From a virus: a DNA stretch of 62,231 nt. The notes under the pieces are model-generated. The model ran no database searches and was not told where the DNA came from. It worked only from the letters and a program-made list of their open reading frames with translations. Location of the stretch: positions 1 to 62,231 of IMG/VR virus record IMGVR_UViG_3300010348_000458; one strand, given 5' to 3'. Made by a program: the position numbers and the translations under genes. Numbering within the stretch: the first letter of the stretch is position 1; the number at the start of each line of letters is the position of its first letter. Positions 20,911 to 23,711 of this stretch are shown here, in pieces.

Positions 20911-22200
20911 CGTCAACTACCACCCGCTAAAGCGGGTGGCTTGTCCCTGACGCCATCGCAGAAGTAGCGGCGGTGGTCGAGACGTTTGGCAGGTTGACTA
21001 CTGCCCGGCGAGCGATATTGCTCGCCGCGATGTGATCGGCAAATCCAGCAAATCCGCACGACACACAGGAGAACTGACTTTGAGTAGGGCGATTGCGTTT
21101 GTCTACGTGACCACAGGCGGGACAGGTGCGGGACGTATTACGAGGGTCTACAAAGACCACCGGAACACCCACGCGCTGCGCCTTGTAGGAGACAAACGAC
21201 CGGAGTTGGAAGAAAGACCAACTATGCAGCGTGGCGCGCTGGCGGCGACGAACCGTAACCCGCTGGCGAATGCCTTCGAGGTCTTCGAGAGCAATCGCCC
21301 GCTTCGTGTCTTTCGCCTTCGTCACAAGCTGCTTGGAGATAACGTGATTCACATTTCTGGCAAAGCGAGACTCTTTGCCGGACAACTGACGCAGCCGACG
21401 CCGCGCCGACTTGGTGCCTTTGCGCTGCAACTTGGCGCGCAGGCGGCGGTGACGTTGCCTGACGCTATTGACCTCACTGGACGAATGCACTTCACCGTCC
21501 GAGTCAACGGCGATATTCGTCACGCCCAAGTCAACGCCCAACGCGCCCTCAACGTCAATCGGTTCCGGTTCCTGCACTTCGCAGGTGGCAGACAGGAAGA
21601 ACGCGCCGCGGAACGTGACCAGATCGGTTTCGCCCTGGCGAGATTCCAGAAGCGCGCGCTGCCTCTCTCCACAGACGAACGGGATGTGCAAGCGACCCTC
21701 TACCGTCCAGATCGAGACAGTAGACTTGGCAAGCTGCCAGGAAAGGATACGGTCATCGTAGGCAATGCTCCCTGTGGACCGGAACATGCGCTTACTCTGA
21801 CGGTCGAGCTTGTAGGCATCGGCAACCTTGCCAATCACCCGCACGGCGACCTGAGCCGAAAGCCCGAATTGCGACCGGATAGCCTGATAGCACAGGTGAT
21901 GCAGGTCGTACTGCCGGAAGGTCTTGGTTTCCCACGCCGTATCACTCACAAACCGACAGGCGGCGTTGGCCTGTTCCAACGTCCGCTTGAGCGCGTCGGC
22001 TTGTTCGGGAGTAGGGAGCAGTTTGACTTGAGCTATCAGCTTCATGCCAATAATTATAGCACAAACACCCTAAAACTTCAAGTAGGGAAATCAGACCTTC
22101 TGGCATTCTTCGATGTATCGATTGTACCACGAAAGGAGGGAAGCGGCTTCCTCCACCCTTTGAAAGGGGGGGTTTCCGCCGCCGAACCTCATGAAAACCT
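20911..22200 (-). mobile_element. tnpB-only IS200/IS605-family element (approximate ends)
   Basis: Subterminal hairpins at both ends (CCACCCGC taaa GCGGGTGG at 20920-20939; GGAGGGAAGCGGCTTCCTCC and CCCTTTgAAAGGG at about 22135-22170). No tnpA. Confidence 0.6.
20927..22045 (-). CDS. tnpB: TnpB (RuvC-like RNA-guided nuclease family)
   Basis: 372 aa. N-terminal KLLPTPEQ...L. RuvC D (GVDLGVTNIAV), E (AIALEDLEGI), zinc ribbon CPACGH..CVSCG, D (FADHIAASNIARRA). Confidence 0.9.
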   Translation of the reverse strand: MKLIAQVKLLPTPEQADALKRTLEQANAACRFVSDTAWETKTFRQYDLHHLCYQAIRSQFGLSAQVAVRVIGKVADAYKLDRQSKRMFRSTGSIAYDDRILSWQLAKSTVSIWTVEGRLHIPFVCGERQRALLESRQGETDLVTFRGAFFLSATCEVQEPEPIDVEGALGVDLGVTNIAVDSDGEVHSSSEVNSVRQRHRRLRAKLQRKGTKSARRRLRQLSGKESRFARNVNHVISKQLVTKAKDTKRAIALEDLEGIRQRVTVRRRQRATLHSWSFFQLRSFVSYKAQRVGVPVVFVDPRNTSRTCPACGHVDKRNRPTQSQFSCVSCGFAGFADHIAASNIARRAVVNLPNVSTTAATSAMASGTSHPL

Positions 22201-22251: not shown

Positions 22252-22452
22252 TTACTTTTTTGTCTCCGCCAGAGCCTCAATTTCGCTTCCGAGCCGGTCA
22301 GATATGATTTCGGTGTCATCTGACTTGCACTCCACACATACCGCCGTTGGGTCACACGCAATACGTAGCGGTATCAACTTCGCAAAAACAACGCTACCGC
22401 AGTTAAAACAAAATGCGGTAACGATGACATCATCCTTTTTTATCTCGTCCAT
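22252..22452 (-). CDS. Small zinc-ribbon protein
   Basis: ATG 22452 with a GGAG RBS. CFNCG...CVEC. Confidence 0.45.
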   Translation of the reverse strand: MDEIKKDDVIVTAFCFNCGSVVFAKLIPLRIACDPTAVCVECKSDDTEIISDRLGSEIEALAETKK

Positions 22453-22637
22453 GGAATCTCCGCCGAACAAATGGCAATAAAAATTGCCATAAATATAACC
22501 ATCACAAAAAAGGCAATAAATCTCCATGCCCAAGACAGGTCTGCATCAATCGCCGCGCCAGAGGCGGTAATTGCCACGAAAAACGTGACAATCATACCAA
22601 TCACCTGCATTATTCGTAAAAAAATCCTTTTTTTCAT
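22440..22637 (-). CDS. Small membrane protein
   Basis: ATG 22637 with a GGAGGATAAG RBS. Two transmembrane helices. Confidence 0.5.
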   Translation of the reverse strand: MKKRIFLRIMQVIGMIVTFFVAITASGAAIDADLSWAWRFIAFFVMVIFMAIFIAICSAEIPWTR

Positions 22638-22729
22638 CTTATCCTCCAAAAATTACCTCCGCGCCGTTGTCCCGACTCAAAATCCGGGCTTGTTCGTGAT
22701 TACGTTAACCGCGCACGCGGAAGCGACTT

Positions 22730-22844
22730 TGGCGGTCAGGATTTGAGCCTGATTAGCATAATTTCTGGATTTCCCTGTTCGTCGTTATGATAGACGCCAT
22801 CGAGTTATGCTGCCGATTCACGTGTTCCCACCACGCCGCCGCCA
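22730..22844 (-). ncRNA. tRNA-like cloverleaf mimic, unit 2 (115 nt; not a canonical tRNA)
   Basis: Minus strand: TGGCGG / CG / GCGTG-GTGGGAA-CACGT / 7-bp AGCATAA...TTATGCT arm with a 43-nt insert / TCAGG-CTCAAAT-CCTGA / CCGCCA pairing with the 5' TGGCGG. Confidence 0.5.
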
Positions 22845-23101
22845 GCAAAAACCAGTATCGCCTGGCGATCCGTAGCTTGACAGCCACTACCACTCATTAC
22901 CCTCACACGGAGGAACGGATTCTTACTAGGCTGTCAGCCAGGTTCCCACTGGATGTTGCCTGTCAATCAATTGGTAAGGTACTAAATCCCGGTTACACTC
23001 TCCGGCTCGCCGTCTTTTCGCCTTTCGGTCGGGCTGCAACTTATGCCCTGCGGACGATGCTGATATCCCGATTTTCGACCAGCCTTTTATCATGGGCATG
23101 A

Positions 23102-23290
23102 TAGGCGGCCAGGATTCGAACCTGGTTATACCCGTTTCATACTGCCGCGCTATGCTCTCCTGGGCTTCGAAGGGTTTCCAGGGCTTCCAGCGTCCTCCCG
23201 CATATCTATCACCTGTGTTACCACAAGCCGGAGGACATCGACAATCGGTATTTGCGTATGTACCAGCGTGTTCCCACCACGCCGCCGCCA
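23102..23290 (-). ncRNA. tRNA-like element, unit 1 (189 nt)
   Basis: Starts with the same 24-nt module (23267-23290). Ends with CCAGG-TTCGAAT-CCTGG directly followed by CCGCCTA (GGCGG/CCGCC pairing). About 135 nt lies between the D-like and T arms. Confidence 0.45.
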
Positions 23291-23327
23291 AATCTGTTAC
23301 CAGCTTGTCAGCCAGTCGAGTTAAAGT

Positions 23328-23711
23328 TCAATGCCAAAATGCTTCGCCAAAATGCTTCTTTGCCGCCACCAACGCCCATCGCAGTTCATCGGCAAACTCA
23401 TTTCTTGGCAGAAATACATGACAGCCGTTAGCTGTAACGGCGTGGATTGCACCAATCCATTTTCGCAACGCCCGCAATTGACAGATTTTCAACTTCGACA
23501 AACCCGCAACATCCGGAGAGTCAAAATCGAACAGATATGCGATCAAAGTATGCCGGTCTCGCTCATCGAGACCTTGGTTCCGAAACTGCATGTATATTCC
23601 AGCTATCATCGTTTCCGGTTGCCCGGTTGTGTAAATTTCCTCACATTGAACCGCATAATCACGCAGGAATTTTTTTAATTCCTCTGGCTTCATGGCAACA
23701 TTTTCGCTCAT
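23328..23711 (-). CDS. Hypothetical protein
   Basis: ATG 23711 overlaps the upstream stop (ATGA coupling). Confidence 0.55.
   Translation of the reverse strand: MSENVAMKPEELKKFLRDYAVQCEEIYTTGQPETMIAGIYMQFRNQGLDERDRHTLIAYLFDFDSPDVAGLSKLKICQLRALRKWIGAIHAVTANGCHVFLPRNEFADELRWALVAAKKHFGEAFWH

What the first reader, a model, noticed from the sequence alone, without database searches (positions are those of the whole stretch)
22730..23290. Two tRNA-like cloverleaf mimics with an identical 24-nt 5' module, in a phage that encodes Ro60
Region 22650-23327 has no credible ORF.

Structure on the minus strand:
- Two units each start with the identical TGGCGG-CG-GCGTG-GTGGGAA-CACG (23290-23267 and 22844-22821). 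This reads as an acceptor 5' strand, a 2-nt linker, and a D-arm-like 5-bp stem with a 7-nt GG-containing loop.
- Each unit ends with a 5-bp/7-nt T-arm directly followed by the complementary acceptor 3' strand: CCAGG-TTCGAAT-CCTGG-CCGCCTA at 23125-23102, and TCAGG-CTCAAAT-CCTGA-CCGCCA at 22752-22730.
- Unit 2 (115 nt) also has a 7-bp AGCATAA/TTATGCT helix where the anticodon stem would be, but it encloses 43 nt.
- Unit 1 (189 nt) has about 135 nt between the D-like and T arms.
- Neither unit is a canonical tRNA.

The 255 nt between the units contain GGCTGGTCGA (23084-23075). As far as I recall this resembles the metazoan Y RNA 5' consensus GGCUGGUCCGA. That segment ends in a weak hairpin plus T5.

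Interpretation:
- Bacterial Ro60 partners (YrlA-type Y RNAs) are known to carry a tRNA-like module, so these are candidate partners of the Ro60 ortholog at 84-1472.
- Alternatives are tmRNA-like RNAs, decoys for tRNA-targeting defences, or RNase P/Z punctuation that releases the central RNA.
Basis: partly seen in the sequence, partly recalled or inferred. Interest (0 to 1): 0.8.

Follow-up and report, generated by a model that had tools for sequence, protein, structure and literature searches.

The report
Phage tRNA-shaped RNAs with swappable middles
Two neighbouring genes in this phage encode RNAs with the ends and elbow of a tRNA but a large variable domain in place of the anticodon arm; they belong to a widespread phage RNA family absent from Rfam and are probably not the partners of the phage's Ro60 protein, whose own Y RNAs lie elsewhere in the genome.

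Summary
Two minus-strand units (23291-23102 and 22845-22729) share an exact 24-nt 5' module and each ends in a T-arm plus CCGCC. They are neither tRNAs nor tmRNAs by ARAGORN, and they match no Rfam family.

Pattern scans of viral, metagenome and genome collections found about 45 relatives:
- They share the 5' half N1N2-GGCGG-CG-GCGUG-GUGGGAA-CACGC, a covarying 5-bp T stem, a UUCRAAU loop, and a 7-bp acceptor whose first two pairs covary.
- Between the D and T arms lies an 8-167-nt body of roughly two dozen unrelated types.
- Unit 1's body shows 9 compensatory pair changes and no broken pair against its homologue.
- Each unit occurs alone in other phages. Some relatives sit inside phage tRNA gene arrays.

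The Ro60-partner reading is not supported:
- A covariance model built from Ro60-adjacent YrlA RNAs finds three tandem Y RNAs at 60671-60925. They are on Ro60's strand, 1.26 kb upstream in this circular genome.
- In the finding region that model matches only the two T hairpins.

Best reading: a new family of tRNA-chassis noncoding RNAs with exchangeable effector domains, probably matured by tRNA-processing enzymes. Its function is unknown.

The parts
23102..23291 (-). Unit 1, a 190-nt tRNA-chassis RNA. Acceptor 5' strand 23291-23285 (UU+GGCGG); C8G9 23284-23283; D-like arm 23282-23266 (GCGUG-GUGGGAA-CACGC); variable body 23265-23126 (140 nt, multi-helix); T arm 23125-23109 (CCAGG-UUCGAAU-CCUGG); acceptor 3' strand 23108-23102.
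   Evidence: An identical unit occurs alone in L002 and L301. Against the diverged homologue L001 the body keeps 49 predicted pairs, with 9 compensatory changes and none broken.
22729..22845 (-). Unit 2, a 117-nt tRNA-chassis RNA. Acceptor 5' strand 22845-22839 (CU+GGCGG); D-like arm 22836-22820 (closing pair G-U); body 22819-22753 (67 nt, with helix AGCAUAA 22811-22805 / UUAUGCU 22761-22755); T arm 22752-22736 (UCAGG-CUCAAAU-CCUGA); acceptor 3' strand 22735-22729.
   Evidence: An identical unit occurs alone in L004. A copy with one substitution lies in L312 between tRNA-Trp and tRNA-Met. The body has no covariation data because all copies are near-identical.
22988..23101 (-). Trailer module after unit 1.
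   Evidence: 112/116 identical to the trailer that follows a different, 90-nt unit in L296 and L320. The terminal hairpin recurs as CUGG-AUAGUGUAA-CCAG and CCCGG-AGUCGUAA-CCGGG in other trailers. The three differences from L320 are non-synonymous or nonsense in the only ORF frame.
22846..22987 (-). Leader module before unit 2. It holds a long hairpin, CCUGGCUGACAGCC (22942-22929) with GGCUGUCAAGC...GCCAGG (22885-22860), then GGCGAUACUGGUUUUUGCU.
   Evidence: Matches the leader of L320 exactly over the 129 nt aligned. In L001 the hairpin reads CUGAUAACC/GGUUAUCAG in place of CUGACAGCC/GGCUGUCAAG, which is compensatory. The last 18 nt are also conserved upstream of L004's unit.
60671..60925 (+). 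Three tandem Y-RNA-like genes (60671-60742, 60752-60834, 60843-60925) that have the Ro60-binding stem but no tRNA-like domain. They are not part of the finding but bear on its interpretation.
   Evidence: YrlA covariance model R1 scores 27.3, 26.3 and 31.7 bits (E 4e-5 to 2e-6). The units are conserved in L365, L366 and L383 upstream of 96-97% identical Ro60. Unit 2 carries GGCGAAGG, which fits GNCGAAN0-1G.
60613..60641 (+). Sigma-70-type promoter TTGACA-17-TATAAT in front of the Y RNA cluster.
   Evidence: Read directly from the sequence. Identical in L366.
84..1472 (+). Ro60 orthologue (TROVE + vWA). Its start codon also appears at 62189 inside the 127-nt terminal repeat.
   Evidence: Pfam TROVE 4.8e-17 and VWA_2. 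PDB 'TROVE domain-containing protein' 9l5y/9kop, E 3e-32. Terminal repeat shown.
20927..22045 (-). tnpB (IS605-family OrfB). An incidental insertion downstream of the RNA locus, not part of the feature.
   Evidence: Pfam OrfB_IS605 + Cas12f1-like_TNB. Relative to L002 the downstream ORF is displaced by 2052 nt. About 446 nt of that is the unit 2 insertion and about 1.6 kb is the IS.

Best explanation
Region 22729-23291 (minus strand) encodes two tandem members of a widespread phage-borne family of tRNA-chassis noncoding RNAs that has no match in Rfam 15.

Shown:
- Each member has a tRNA-like 7-bp acceptor helix (two variable, covarying pairs plus invariant GGCGG/CCGCC).
- It has a near-invariant 5' half: CG linker, 5-bp D-like stem, and a GG-containing 7-nt loop.
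- It has a canonical T arm (5-bp covarying stem, UUCRAAU loop).
- Where a tRNA has its anticodon and variable arms, it has a structured body of 8-167 nt that differs completely between members.
- The window's arrangement arose by recombination at the shared chassis. It equals the single-unit locus of a sister phage (L002) plus an inserted trailer, leader and unit 2.

Inferred:
- The RNAs are transcribed within the minus-strand early/replication operon.
- They are cut out like tRNAs by host RNase P at the 5' end and by 3' trimming, possibly followed by CCA addition.
- The acceptor/T-arm stack and the D-loop/T-loop elbow give stability and access to tRNA-binding machinery.
- The variable body is the specificity or effector domain.
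- They are unlikely to be aminoacylated or to decode: there is no anticodon arm, the first two acceptor pairs and position 73 vary, and no CCA is encoded.

The biological target is unknown. tRNA mimicry directed at a host tRNA-binding factor is my leading guess.
For: - Exact 24-nt repeat, with none in 100 shuffles.
- About 45 family members were recovered by 19-mer and T-arm-anchored scans, with bodies of 8-167 nt in roughly two dozen unrelated types.
- On 27 distinct cores, acceptor pair 2-71 is paired in 23/27 with 5 pair types and pair 1-72 in 18/27. The flanks were not used for selection. Slid controls give 29-39% cells paired, and 0/500 shuffles reach the observed covariation score.
- T-stem pairs 35/51 and 37/49 each show four pair types.
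- Unit 1 body against L001: 9 compensatory pair changes, none broken. The 5' module, the T arm and CCGCC are unchanged; the ends differ only at N1 and N71.
- Unit 1 occurs alone in L002 with the window's downstream flank. Unit 2 occurs alone in L004.
- A different tandem pair of units occurs in L296.
- Members are embedded in tRNA operons on the same strand: L312 between tRNA-Trp and tRNA-Met, L195 after tRNA-Arg, and the cousin RNA in L483 before tRNA-Pro. In L259 a member follows an 82-nt mini-tmRNA-like element.
- Members often start 5-17 nt after a same-strand ORF (RecT or MBL-fold nuclease) and have no promoter or terminator of their own.
- No Rfam family matches the 20 family loci scanned at E<=1.
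- A CRISPR spacer matches the 5' module, which shows the element is phage-borne and is targeted.
Against: - There are no expression data, so the transcript, its ends and its stability are all inferred.
- Folding energies of the two units are not better than shuffles.
- Unit 2's body has no covariation support.
- In the window's own units acceptor pairs 1-72 and 2-71 are poor: no contiguous pair in unit 1 and one in unit 2. That weakens the case for clean RNase P-type processing here.
- Position 8 is C rather than the tRNA-invariant U, and the D stem has 5 bp.
- The invariance of the 5' module is partly an ascertainment effect, because most members were found with a 19-mer taken from it. The T-arm-anchored scan also found cousins with other D arms.
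- Truncated copies (L087, L292, L293, L341) show the RNA is dispensable for some phages.
- General tRNA-processing enzymes do not need a sequence-invariant D arm, so the strict conservation points to an unidentified specific partner.
Confidence: 0.6

Rival explanations
1. Ro60 partner. The units are Y-RNA-type partners of the phage Ro60, or they supply in trans the tRNA-like module that this lineage's three Ro60-adjacent Y RNAs lack (a 'split YrlA').
For: - The phage encodes Ro60.
- All three Y RNAs next to it lack a tRNA-like domain, whereas Chen et al. report at least one tRNA-like Y RNA per species.
- The two units hold the only exact GGTTCRAATCC T loop in the genome (unit 1) and one of five one-mismatch matches (unit 2).
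- L483 (Ro60 53% identical) also has three Y RNAs without a tRNA-like domain, plus a cousin long tRNA-like RNA 2.7 kb downstream on the same strand.
- L312 has a unit-2-type RNA about 550 nt upstream of a DUF2828/DUF7788 gene that is a remote Ro60 homologue (HHalign 96.4%).
Against: - The topology is not the YrlA permutation, and there is no Ro-binding stem. The YrlA model hits only the T hairpins.
- The units lie 21 kb from Ro60 on the opposite strand.
- 48 of 51 family loci show no Ro60-like gene.
- None of the 19 Ro60 loci holds the module within +/-10 kb.
- Ro60-like genes occur in about 8% of tRNA-anchored phage loci anyway (10 of 120), so L312 and L483 may only reflect tRNA-cluster neighbourhoods.
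- No significant Y RNA-unit complementarity was found.
Confidence: 0.08
2. Decoy or sponge. The RNAs mimic the acceptor/elbow half of tRNA to sequester a host tRNA-directed defence or toxin, such as an acceptor-stem nuclease or nucleotidyltransferase toxin, or another tRNA-binding factor. This is a functional sub-case of the best explanation.
For: - The tRNA elbow and acceptor are conserved while the anticodon arm is absent.
- The family is accessory and moron-like, lies in early regions and can be lost.
- Strict sequence conservation of the 5' half suggests one specific binding partner.
Against: A simple decoy does not need some two dozen different structured bodies kept by compensatory change. 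No defence or anti-defence gene is a recurrent neighbour. No target is known.
Confidence: 0.15
3. Cis-acting punctuation. The tRNA-like folds are RNase P/RNase Z processing and stability signals that separate cistrons of the early operon. The RNA itself would have no trans function.
For: Members sit between same-strand ORFs with gaps of 5-17 nt and have no promoter or terminator of their own. Some members lie inside tRNA operons.
Against: Punctuation needs only a minimal tRNA shape. It does not explain the large, diverse bodies under compensatory evolution, the tandem units with structured leader and trailer modules, or the sequence-invariant D arm.
Confidence: 0.12
4. Relics. The units are tRNA or tmRNA gene fragments, or attP-type integration sites left by integrases that target tRNA genes. 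In that case they would be decaying pseudogenes or recombination scars.
For: Truncated 5' modules fused to unrelated sequence exist in L087, L292, L293 and L341. Cassette exchange occurs at the conserved ends.
Against: - No integrase is a neighbour in the window's flank or among the recurrent neighbours.
- Full-length units carry covarying helices and a chassis conserved across many unrelated contexts.
- ARAGORN finds no tmRNA. Position 3-70 is G-C, not G-U.
Confidence: 0.03

Closest known systems
YrlA-type bacterial and phage Y RNAs (Chen et al. 2014, PMC4201824)
   Same: Both are noncoding RNAs with a tRNA-like D arm, T arm and acceptor-like helix, and both occur in phages. This phage encodes Ro60.
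   Different: YrlA is circularly permuted relative to tRNA: T, then a closed acceptor hairpin, then D. Its 5'/3' ends form the Ro60-binding stem, and it lies within about 4 kb of Ro60 on the same strand. Here the ends form the acceptor helix, no Ro-binding stem exists, the D arm is GCGUG-GUGGGAA-CACGC rather than the UAGCUCAGUGGUAGAGC type, and the locus is 21 kb from Ro60. The window's real Y RNAs are at 60671-60925.
tmRNA (SsrA)
   Same: Same topology: a tRNA-like domain made from the 5' and 3' ends (acceptor plus T arm), with a large insert where the anticodon arm would be.
   Different: There is no G3-U70 alanine identity pair and no encoded CCA. The family has a true D stem, which as I recall the tmRNA tRNA-like domain lacks. 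ARAGORN finds no tmRNA and hence no tag reading frame, and the Rfam tmRNA models do not match the units. Bodies are 8-167 nt and unrelated to one another.
Canonical tRNA
   Same: 7-bp acceptor, 5-bp T stem with a UUCRAAU loop, a GG-containing D loop, and genomic placement inside tRNA arrays in some phages.
   Different: There is no 5-bp/7-nt anticodon arm, C8 replaces U8, and the D stem has 5 bp with a 7-nt loop. Neither ARAGORN nor Rfam RF00005 detects the units at E<=10 (window region) or family members at E<=1 (20 loci).
Phage T4 stable RNAs 'species 1 and 2' (rnaC/rnaD) in the T4 tRNA gene cluster (from memory, not checked here)
   Same: As far as I recall, these are 120-140-nt stable phage RNAs of unknown function that are co-transcribed and co-processed with tRNAs and have tRNA-like termini.
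   Different: No sequence relationship was tested. A GenBank phage search with the 1.2-kb region found nothing. The invariant chassis combined with many different bodies is not described for T4.
Engineered 'tRNA scaffold' for RNA expression (Ponchon and Dardel; from memory)
   Same: The design principle is the same: keep the acceptor, D and T arms so that the cell processes and stabilises the RNA, and replace the anticodon arm with an arbitrary structured cargo.
   Different: That is a laboratory construct. Here the arrangement is natural, evolutionarily conserved, and exchanged between phages.

Membership tests
Canonical tRNA | 7-bp acceptor stem formed by the 5' and 3' ends | tested here: met
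   Family level: pair 2-71 is paired in 23/27 and pair 1-72 in 18/27, both with covariation, plus invariant GGCGG/CCGCC. In the window's own units the first two pairs give no contiguous extension (unit 1) and one pair (unit 2).
Canonical tRNA | T arm: 5-bp stem and a 7-nt UUCRANY-type loop | tested here: met
   CCAGG-UUCGAAU-CCUGG and UCAGG-CUCAAAU-CCUGA. The stem covaries across the family.
Canonical tRNA | Anticodon arm (5-bp stem, 7-nt loop with U33) and detection by tRNA finders | tested here: not met
   ARAGORN finds 0 genes in the window and none at family members. Rfam tRNA gives no hit at E<=10 in the window region or at E<=1 in 20 family loci. Bodies of 8-167 nt hold no anticodon arm.
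Canonical tRNA | U8 and a 3-4-bp D stem | tested here: not met
   Position 8 is C in all 27 core sequences. The D stem has 5 bp with a 7-nt loop.
YrlA / Y RNA (Ro60 partner) | Terminal stem formed by the 5' and 3' ends that carries the Ro60-binding motif (GNCGAAN0-1G; here GGUGNNRNG ... UUYUUCC) | tested here: not met
   Model R1, built from 9 Ro60-adjacent YrlA RNAs, matches only the two T hairpins in 22400-23600 with filters off. The same model scores 26-32 bits on three RNAs at 60671-60925.
YrlA / Y RNA (Ro60 partner) | Permuted module order: V, T, closed acceptor-like hairpin, D | tested here: not met
   The order here is acceptor 5', D, body, T, acceptor 3', whereas YrlA is permuted.
YrlA / Y RNA (Ro60 partner) | Encoded within about 4 kb of Ro60 on the same strand | tested here: not met
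   The window's units are 21 kb away on the opposite strand. 48 of 51 family loci have no Ro60-like gene. The partial exceptions are L312 (0.55 kb from a DUF2828 remote homologue) and L483 (2.7 kb).
YrlA / Y RNA (Ro60 partner) | Physical binding to Ro60 | not testable with these tools
   This needs a Ro60 pull-down or EMSA.
tmRNA | tRNA-like domain made from the two ends, with a large internal insert | tested here: met
   The topology matches.
tmRNA | G3-U70 alanine identity pair, tag-peptide reading frame with resume codon, pseudoknots, 3' CCA | tested here: not met
   Position 3-70 is G-C in 25/27. ARAGORN finds no tmRNA or tag. No CCA is encoded in the 3' flanks. Rfam tmRNA models do not match the units.
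ROOL / GOLLD / other large phage ncRNAs in Rfam | Match to the Rfam covariance model | tested here: not met
   No hit in the window at gathering score, none in the region at E<=10, and none in the 20 family loci at E<=1.
attP / tRNA-gene fragment of an integrative element | Adjacent integrase, and identity to the 3' part of a host tRNA gene only | tested here: not met
   Neighbours are replication and recombination genes with no integrase. The units carry both 5' and 3' halves with covarying helices.

The most novel reading that the evidence does not exclude
Phages of several bacterial phyla share a natural 'tRNA scaffold' platform. It has one near-invariant chassis: a 7-bp acceptor, the 5' half GGCGG-CG-GCGUG-GUGGGAA-CACGC, and a T arm. 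The chassis is processed and stabilised like a tRNA and displays any of some two dozen unrelated structured RNA effector domains. Cassettes are exchanged between phages by recombination at the chassis. The two units in this window would then be two different effectors on the same scaffold. In the most adventurous form of this reading, the chassis delivers its cargo to a conserved tRNA-binding machine (ribosome, EF-Tu, RNase P or a defence nuclease), or serves in trans as the tRNA-like module for Ro60 complexes whose own Y RNAs lack one.
Probability: 0.3. Interest if true: 0.8.

Novelty: new variant of a known kind. Interest (0 to 1): 0.62.

Why it matters
tRNA mimicry by noncoding RNA is known from only a few systems: tmRNA, YrlA, viral 3' tRNA-like structures and mascRNA. 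This family combines a sequence-invariant half-tRNA chassis with a freely exchangeable structured domain. It is spread over phages whose MAG hosts include Anaerolineaceae, Bacteroidales and Ignavibacterium, and a host CRISPR spacer targets it.

If the chassis-plus-cargo reading is right, four things follow:
- It would be a natural counterpart of the engineered tRNA scaffold.
- It would be a source of new stable RNA modules.
- It would offer a handle on how phages exploit host tRNA-processing or tRNA-binding machinery.
- The strict conservation of the D-arm half predicts a specific, still unknown binding partner that can be sought by pull-down.

The work also corrects the annotation of this phage. 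Its Ro60 has three adjacent Y RNAs without a tRNA-like domain. It also shows that DUF2828/DUF7788 proteins, common in phage tRNA clusters, are remote Ro60 homologues.

Tried and rejected
- ARAGORN and Rfam (gathering scores and E<=10) on the window found no tRNA, tmRNA, Y RNA, ROOL or GOLLD. Rfam 15 also fails to report a Y-RNA family for canonical YrlA loci, scoring at most weak tRNA hits. Its silence is therefore uninformative for YrlA, and I built my own model.
- BLASTN of the 1.2-kb region against GenBank phages found no match.
- The degenerate 14-base pattern GGCGGCG-N5-GTGGGAA in IMG/VR gave almost only chance coding hits.
- Many of the 19-mer hits in genomes and metagenomes were coding sequences unrelated to the RNA and were filtered out.
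- tmRNA reading: rejected (no G-U at 3-70, no tag, no ARAGORN call).
- TnpB omega-RNA reading: rejected. The region is upstream of tnpB, not at its 3' end; tnpB is absent from sister locus L002; and no TnpB recurs near other members.
- Promoter or terminator of its own: none convincing.
- Small-ORF reading of the trailer: rejected. There is no obvious Shine-Dalgarno sequence upstream of its AUG, and the differences from L320 are non-synonymous or nonsense.
- Base-pairing between the three Y RNAs and the units or spacer is not better than shuffles.
- The search for a universally co-occurring protein partner found none. Neighbours are RecT, exonuclease, MBL-fold nuclease and DnaB.
- Literature searches for a described equivalent found nothing relevant. 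One search timed out.
Full report
**1. The observation**

On the minus strand the 24-mer TGGCGGCGGCGTGGTGGGAACACG occurs exactly twice, at 23290-23267 and 22844-22821. No match appeared in any of 100 dinucleotide-preserving shuffles.

Each copy is followed by a T-arm-like hairpin and CCGCC:
- After 140 nt: CCAGG-TTCGAAT-CCTGG-CCGCC at 23125-23104.
- After 67 nt: TCAGG-CTCAAAT-CCTGA-CCGCC at 22752-22731.

The two 3' segments are 84% identical over 25 nt. MFE folds reproduce the terminal helix, the D-like hairpin, the T hairpin and unit 2's AGCAUAA/UUAUGCU helix. Their energies are not better than shuffles, with z = -1.25, -0.46 and -0.29.

ARAGORN reports no tRNA or tmRNA anywhere in the window. 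Rfam 15 reports nothing at gathering score in the window and nothing at E<=10 in the region. The ORFs that overlap the region are not conserved. Its significance had to be judged from relatives.

**2. Relatives: a family, not a local curiosity**

An exact scan of IMG/VR with the 24-mer found four loci.
- L002 has unit 1, identical, on its own. It is followed directly by the window's downstream flank (AAAGTCGCTTCCGCG...) and the same small membrane ORF.
- L004 has unit 2, identical, on its own in a different context.
- L001 has a diverged unit-1 homologue.
- L003 has a third body type.

The window therefore equals an L002-like locus plus an insertion that carries the spacer and unit 2. Scans of genome and metagenome collections with the 19-mer GGCGGCGGCGTGGTGGGAA, followed by filtering, raised the count to about 45 members. 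A scan anchored on the other end (GGTTCRAATCCNNNCCGCC), which does not depend on the 5' module, recovered seven more loci with the same module. It also found cousins with other D arms: L391, L451 and L483.

All members have the same plan:
- N1N2-GGCGG-CG-GCGUG-GUGGGAA-CACGC;
- a body of 8 nt (L386) to 167 nt (L314), in roughly two dozen unrelated types;
- a 5-bp T stem, a UUCRAAU loop, and CCGCC-N71N72.

MAG hosts include Anaerolineaceae, Bacteroidales, Ignavibacterium and a gammaproteobacterium. The Anaerolineaceae copy sits in a phage-like replication module. A CRISPR array (L304) carries a spacer that matches the 5' module.

**3. Structure supported by covariation**

I aligned 27 distinct cores with their bodies removed and their flanks kept. 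The flanks were not used for selection.

| Pair | Result |
|---|---|
| Acceptor 2-71 | Paired in 23/27, with UA, GC, AU, CG and GU |
| Acceptor 1-72 | Paired in 18/27 |
| Third flank pair out | Paired in 14/27 |
| Fourth to sixth flank pairs out | Paired in 9-14 of 27 |
| T-stem 35/51 and 37/49 | Four pair types each |

Slid controls give 29-39% of cells paired. The whole-structure covariation score is 0.276, against 0.109 +/- 0.013 in shuffles (0 of 500 reach it) and 0.06-0.09 when partners are slid.

The terminal helix is therefore a tRNA-like 7-bp acceptor. The D stem is invariant in this set, partly because of how the sequences were found, so it says nothing either way. The cousins do show alternative D stems: GCUCA/UGAGC, GGCGU/ACGCU and GCGU/ACGC.

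For unit 1's body, the window and L001 keep all 49 predicted pairs, with 9 changed on both sides and none broken. The 5' module, the T arm and CCGCC are identical between the two; the ends differ only at N1 and N71. Unit 2's body cannot be tested because its three copies are near-identical.

**4. The spacer**

The 255 nt between the units are not a separate Y-like RNA. They are made of two modules:
- A 116-nt trailer (23103-22988), 112/116 identical to the trailer that follows a different 90-nt unit in L296 and L320.
- A 142-nt leader (22987-22846) that matches the leader in front of that unit in L320 exactly over the 129 nt aligned.

The leader forms a long hairpin with compensatory changes in L001. 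The 'hairpin + T5' lies in the leader just upstream of unit 2. Tandem pairs of different units recur (L296). Truncated 5' modules fused to unrelated sequence also exist (L087, L292, L293, L341). Both point to cassette exchange by recombination at the conserved chassis.

**5. Is it the Ro60 partner?**

The ORF at 84-1472 is a Ro60 orthologue, by Pfam TROVE + vWA and by PDB TROVE entries at E 3e-32.

YrlA RNAs have the permuted order 5' Ro-binding strand, V, T, closed acceptor-like hairpin, D, 3' strand. They lie within about 4 kb of Ro60 on the same strand (PMC4201824). I fetched 19 Ro60 loci from IMG/VR. Canonical YrlA genes sit right next to Ro60 in most of the 40-54%-identical ones. Rfam reported no Y-RNA family for these, so I built a covariance model from nine of them.

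- In the window the model hits three tandem sites on the plus strand: 60671-60742, 60752-60834 and 60843-60925 (27.3, 26.3 and 31.7 bits). It does so through the Ro-binding stem, with the tRNA-like domain skipped.
- These sites follow a TTGACA-17-TATAAT promoter and are conserved upstream of Ro60 in L365, L366 and L383.
- The window is a circular genome with a 127-nt terminal repeat, so this cluster lies 1.26 kb upstream of the Ro60 start on the same strand.
- In the finding region the model, with filters off, matches only the two 17-nt T hairpins.
- No Ro60 locus holds the 5' module within +/-10 kb.
- Among 51 loci holding family members or cousins (336 kb), HMM searches find a Ro60-like gene only in the window, L483 and L312.
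- Y RNA-unit duplex energies are no better than shuffles.

The Ro60-partner reading therefore fails the defining YrlA features.

Three facts keep a weak form alive:
1. All three Y RNAs of this lineage lack a tRNA-like domain.
2. L483 (Ro60 53% identical) shows the same three-Y arrangement, plus a cousin long tRNA-like RNA 2.7 kb downstream.
3. In L312 a unit-2-type RNA lies about 550 nt upstream of a DUF2828/DUF7788 gene. By HHalign this gene is a remote Ro60 homologue (96.4%, E 1.3e-9, 335 columns).

However, 10 of the 120 phage loci retrieved through a tRNA-type T arm carry such genes. This may therefore only reflect tRNA-cluster neighbourhoods.

**6. Context and likely mechanism**

Members lie in early, replication or recombination modules. 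They often start 5-17 nt after a same-strand RecT or MBL-fold nuclease gene. None has a convincing promoter or terminator of its own.

Several are embedded in tRNA operons on the same strand:
- L312: the RNA sits between tRNA-Trp and tRNA-Met.
- L195: it follows tRNA-Arg.
- L483: it precedes tRNA-Pro.
- L259: it follows an 82-nt mini-tmRNA-like element.

No protein co-occurs universally, so the partner is probably a host factor. The two tnpB genes of the window are lineage-specific IS insertions that are absent from L002 and L366.

I infer three things. The RNAs are excised from polycistronic transcripts by the tRNA maturation machinery. The acceptor/T stack and the D/T elbow give stability and tRNA-like recognition. 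The variable body is the effector.

Charging and decoding are unlikely, for three reasons: the RNAs lack an anticodon arm, the first two acceptor pairs and position 73 vary, and no CCA is encoded. The strict sequence conservation of the 5' half exceeds what RNase P, CCA-adding enzyme or TruB require (established knowledge). It therefore predicts a specific partner that has not been identified.

**7. Comparison and novelty**

- The topology is that of tmRNA: a tRNA-like domain from both ends with a large insert. None of the tmRNA identity features is present.
- The tRNA mimicry resembles YrlA, but without the permutation or the Ro-binding stem.
- The design resembles the engineered tRNA scaffold. 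As far as I recall, the T4 stable RNAs of the tRNA cluster are also similar (both from memory, not tested).
- No Rfam 15 family matches the window region or the 20 family loci scanned. No GenBank phage carries the locus.

I classify it as a new variant of a known kind: tRNA-like noncoding RNA.

**8. Verdict**

- The feature is real and conserved.
- The Ro60 link is not supported, because better Ro60 partners exist elsewhere in the genome.
- The function remains unknown.
- Interest is moderate to high, because of the invariant chassis, the many different bodies, and the wide spread among uncultivated phages.

Noticed in passing
window 60613-60925 (+): A strong sigma-70-type promoter is followed by three tandem Y-RNA-like genes. 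They carry the Ro60-binding stem (GGUGGCGAWG ... GAUACUUCA ... UUCCCC) but no tRNA-like domain. They lie 1.26 kb upstream of Ro60 on the same strand and are conserved in L365, L366 and L383.
   Followed up: yes
window 1-127 and 62105-62231: The first and last 127 nt are identical, so the window is a complete circular (or terminally redundant) genome of about 62.1 kb. The Ro60 start codon appears at both 84 and 62189.
   Followed up: yes
window 20927-22045 (-) and 59311-60561 (+): There are two IS605-family tnpB genes. Both are absent at the corresponding places in close relatives L002 and L366, so they are recent IS insertions. The second landed in a block of cgcgatatcgttttcgcg-type repeats just upstream of the Y RNA promoter.
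   Followed up: partly
window 60881-60958 and 61731-61812: A direct repeat of about 75 nt, which includes the 3' part of the third Y RNA, flanks a 261-aa ORF (60957-61742) with no Pfam match. That ORF is missing in L366, which looks like a gene-cassette insertion that duplicated its target.
   Followed up: partly
L304 10366-10400: A CRISPR array with repeat GTTTTTAGTCTACCTATAAGGTATTGAAAC holds the spacer AAGACAGAAGTGGGCGGCGGCGTGGTGGGAACACG. The spacer matches the invariant 5' module of the RNA family, so a host targets phages at this conserved site.
   Followed up: partly
L312 2036-3490 (-); also L453, L480, L455, L434, L484, L416, L406, L428: DUF2828+DUF7788 proteins, common next to phage tRNA arrays, are remote homologues of Ro60 across both the helical and vWA parts (HHalign 96.4%, E 1.3e-9). 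Several of these loci also give YrlA-model hits nearby.
   Followed up: partly
L259 121-202 (+): An 82-nt element matches the two ends of the Rfam tmRNA model (tRNA-like domain, 34.7 bits) but has only 34 nt in place of the roughly 326-nt middle. It sits 70 nt upstream of a family member.
   Followed up: no
L087, L292, L293, L341: Truncated copies of the RNA keep only the 5' module plus 5-7 nt of body and then run into unrelated coding sequence, behind the same upstream gene as full-length copies. They look like scars of cassette replacement.
   Followed up: partly
L395, L414, L439: Other phage loci hold 100-150-nt tRNA-like RNAs with a canonical tRNA D arm, a GGCGG/CCGCC acceptor and long insertions. 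One (L439) has an encoded CCA. This suggests a broader class of expanded tRNA-like genes in phages.
   Followed up: no
window 2462-3169 (+), 5274-9495 (-): There are four N6/N4 DNA methylase-domain genes, one of 947 aa, which is an unusually heavy methylase load for a 62-kb phage.
   Followed up: no
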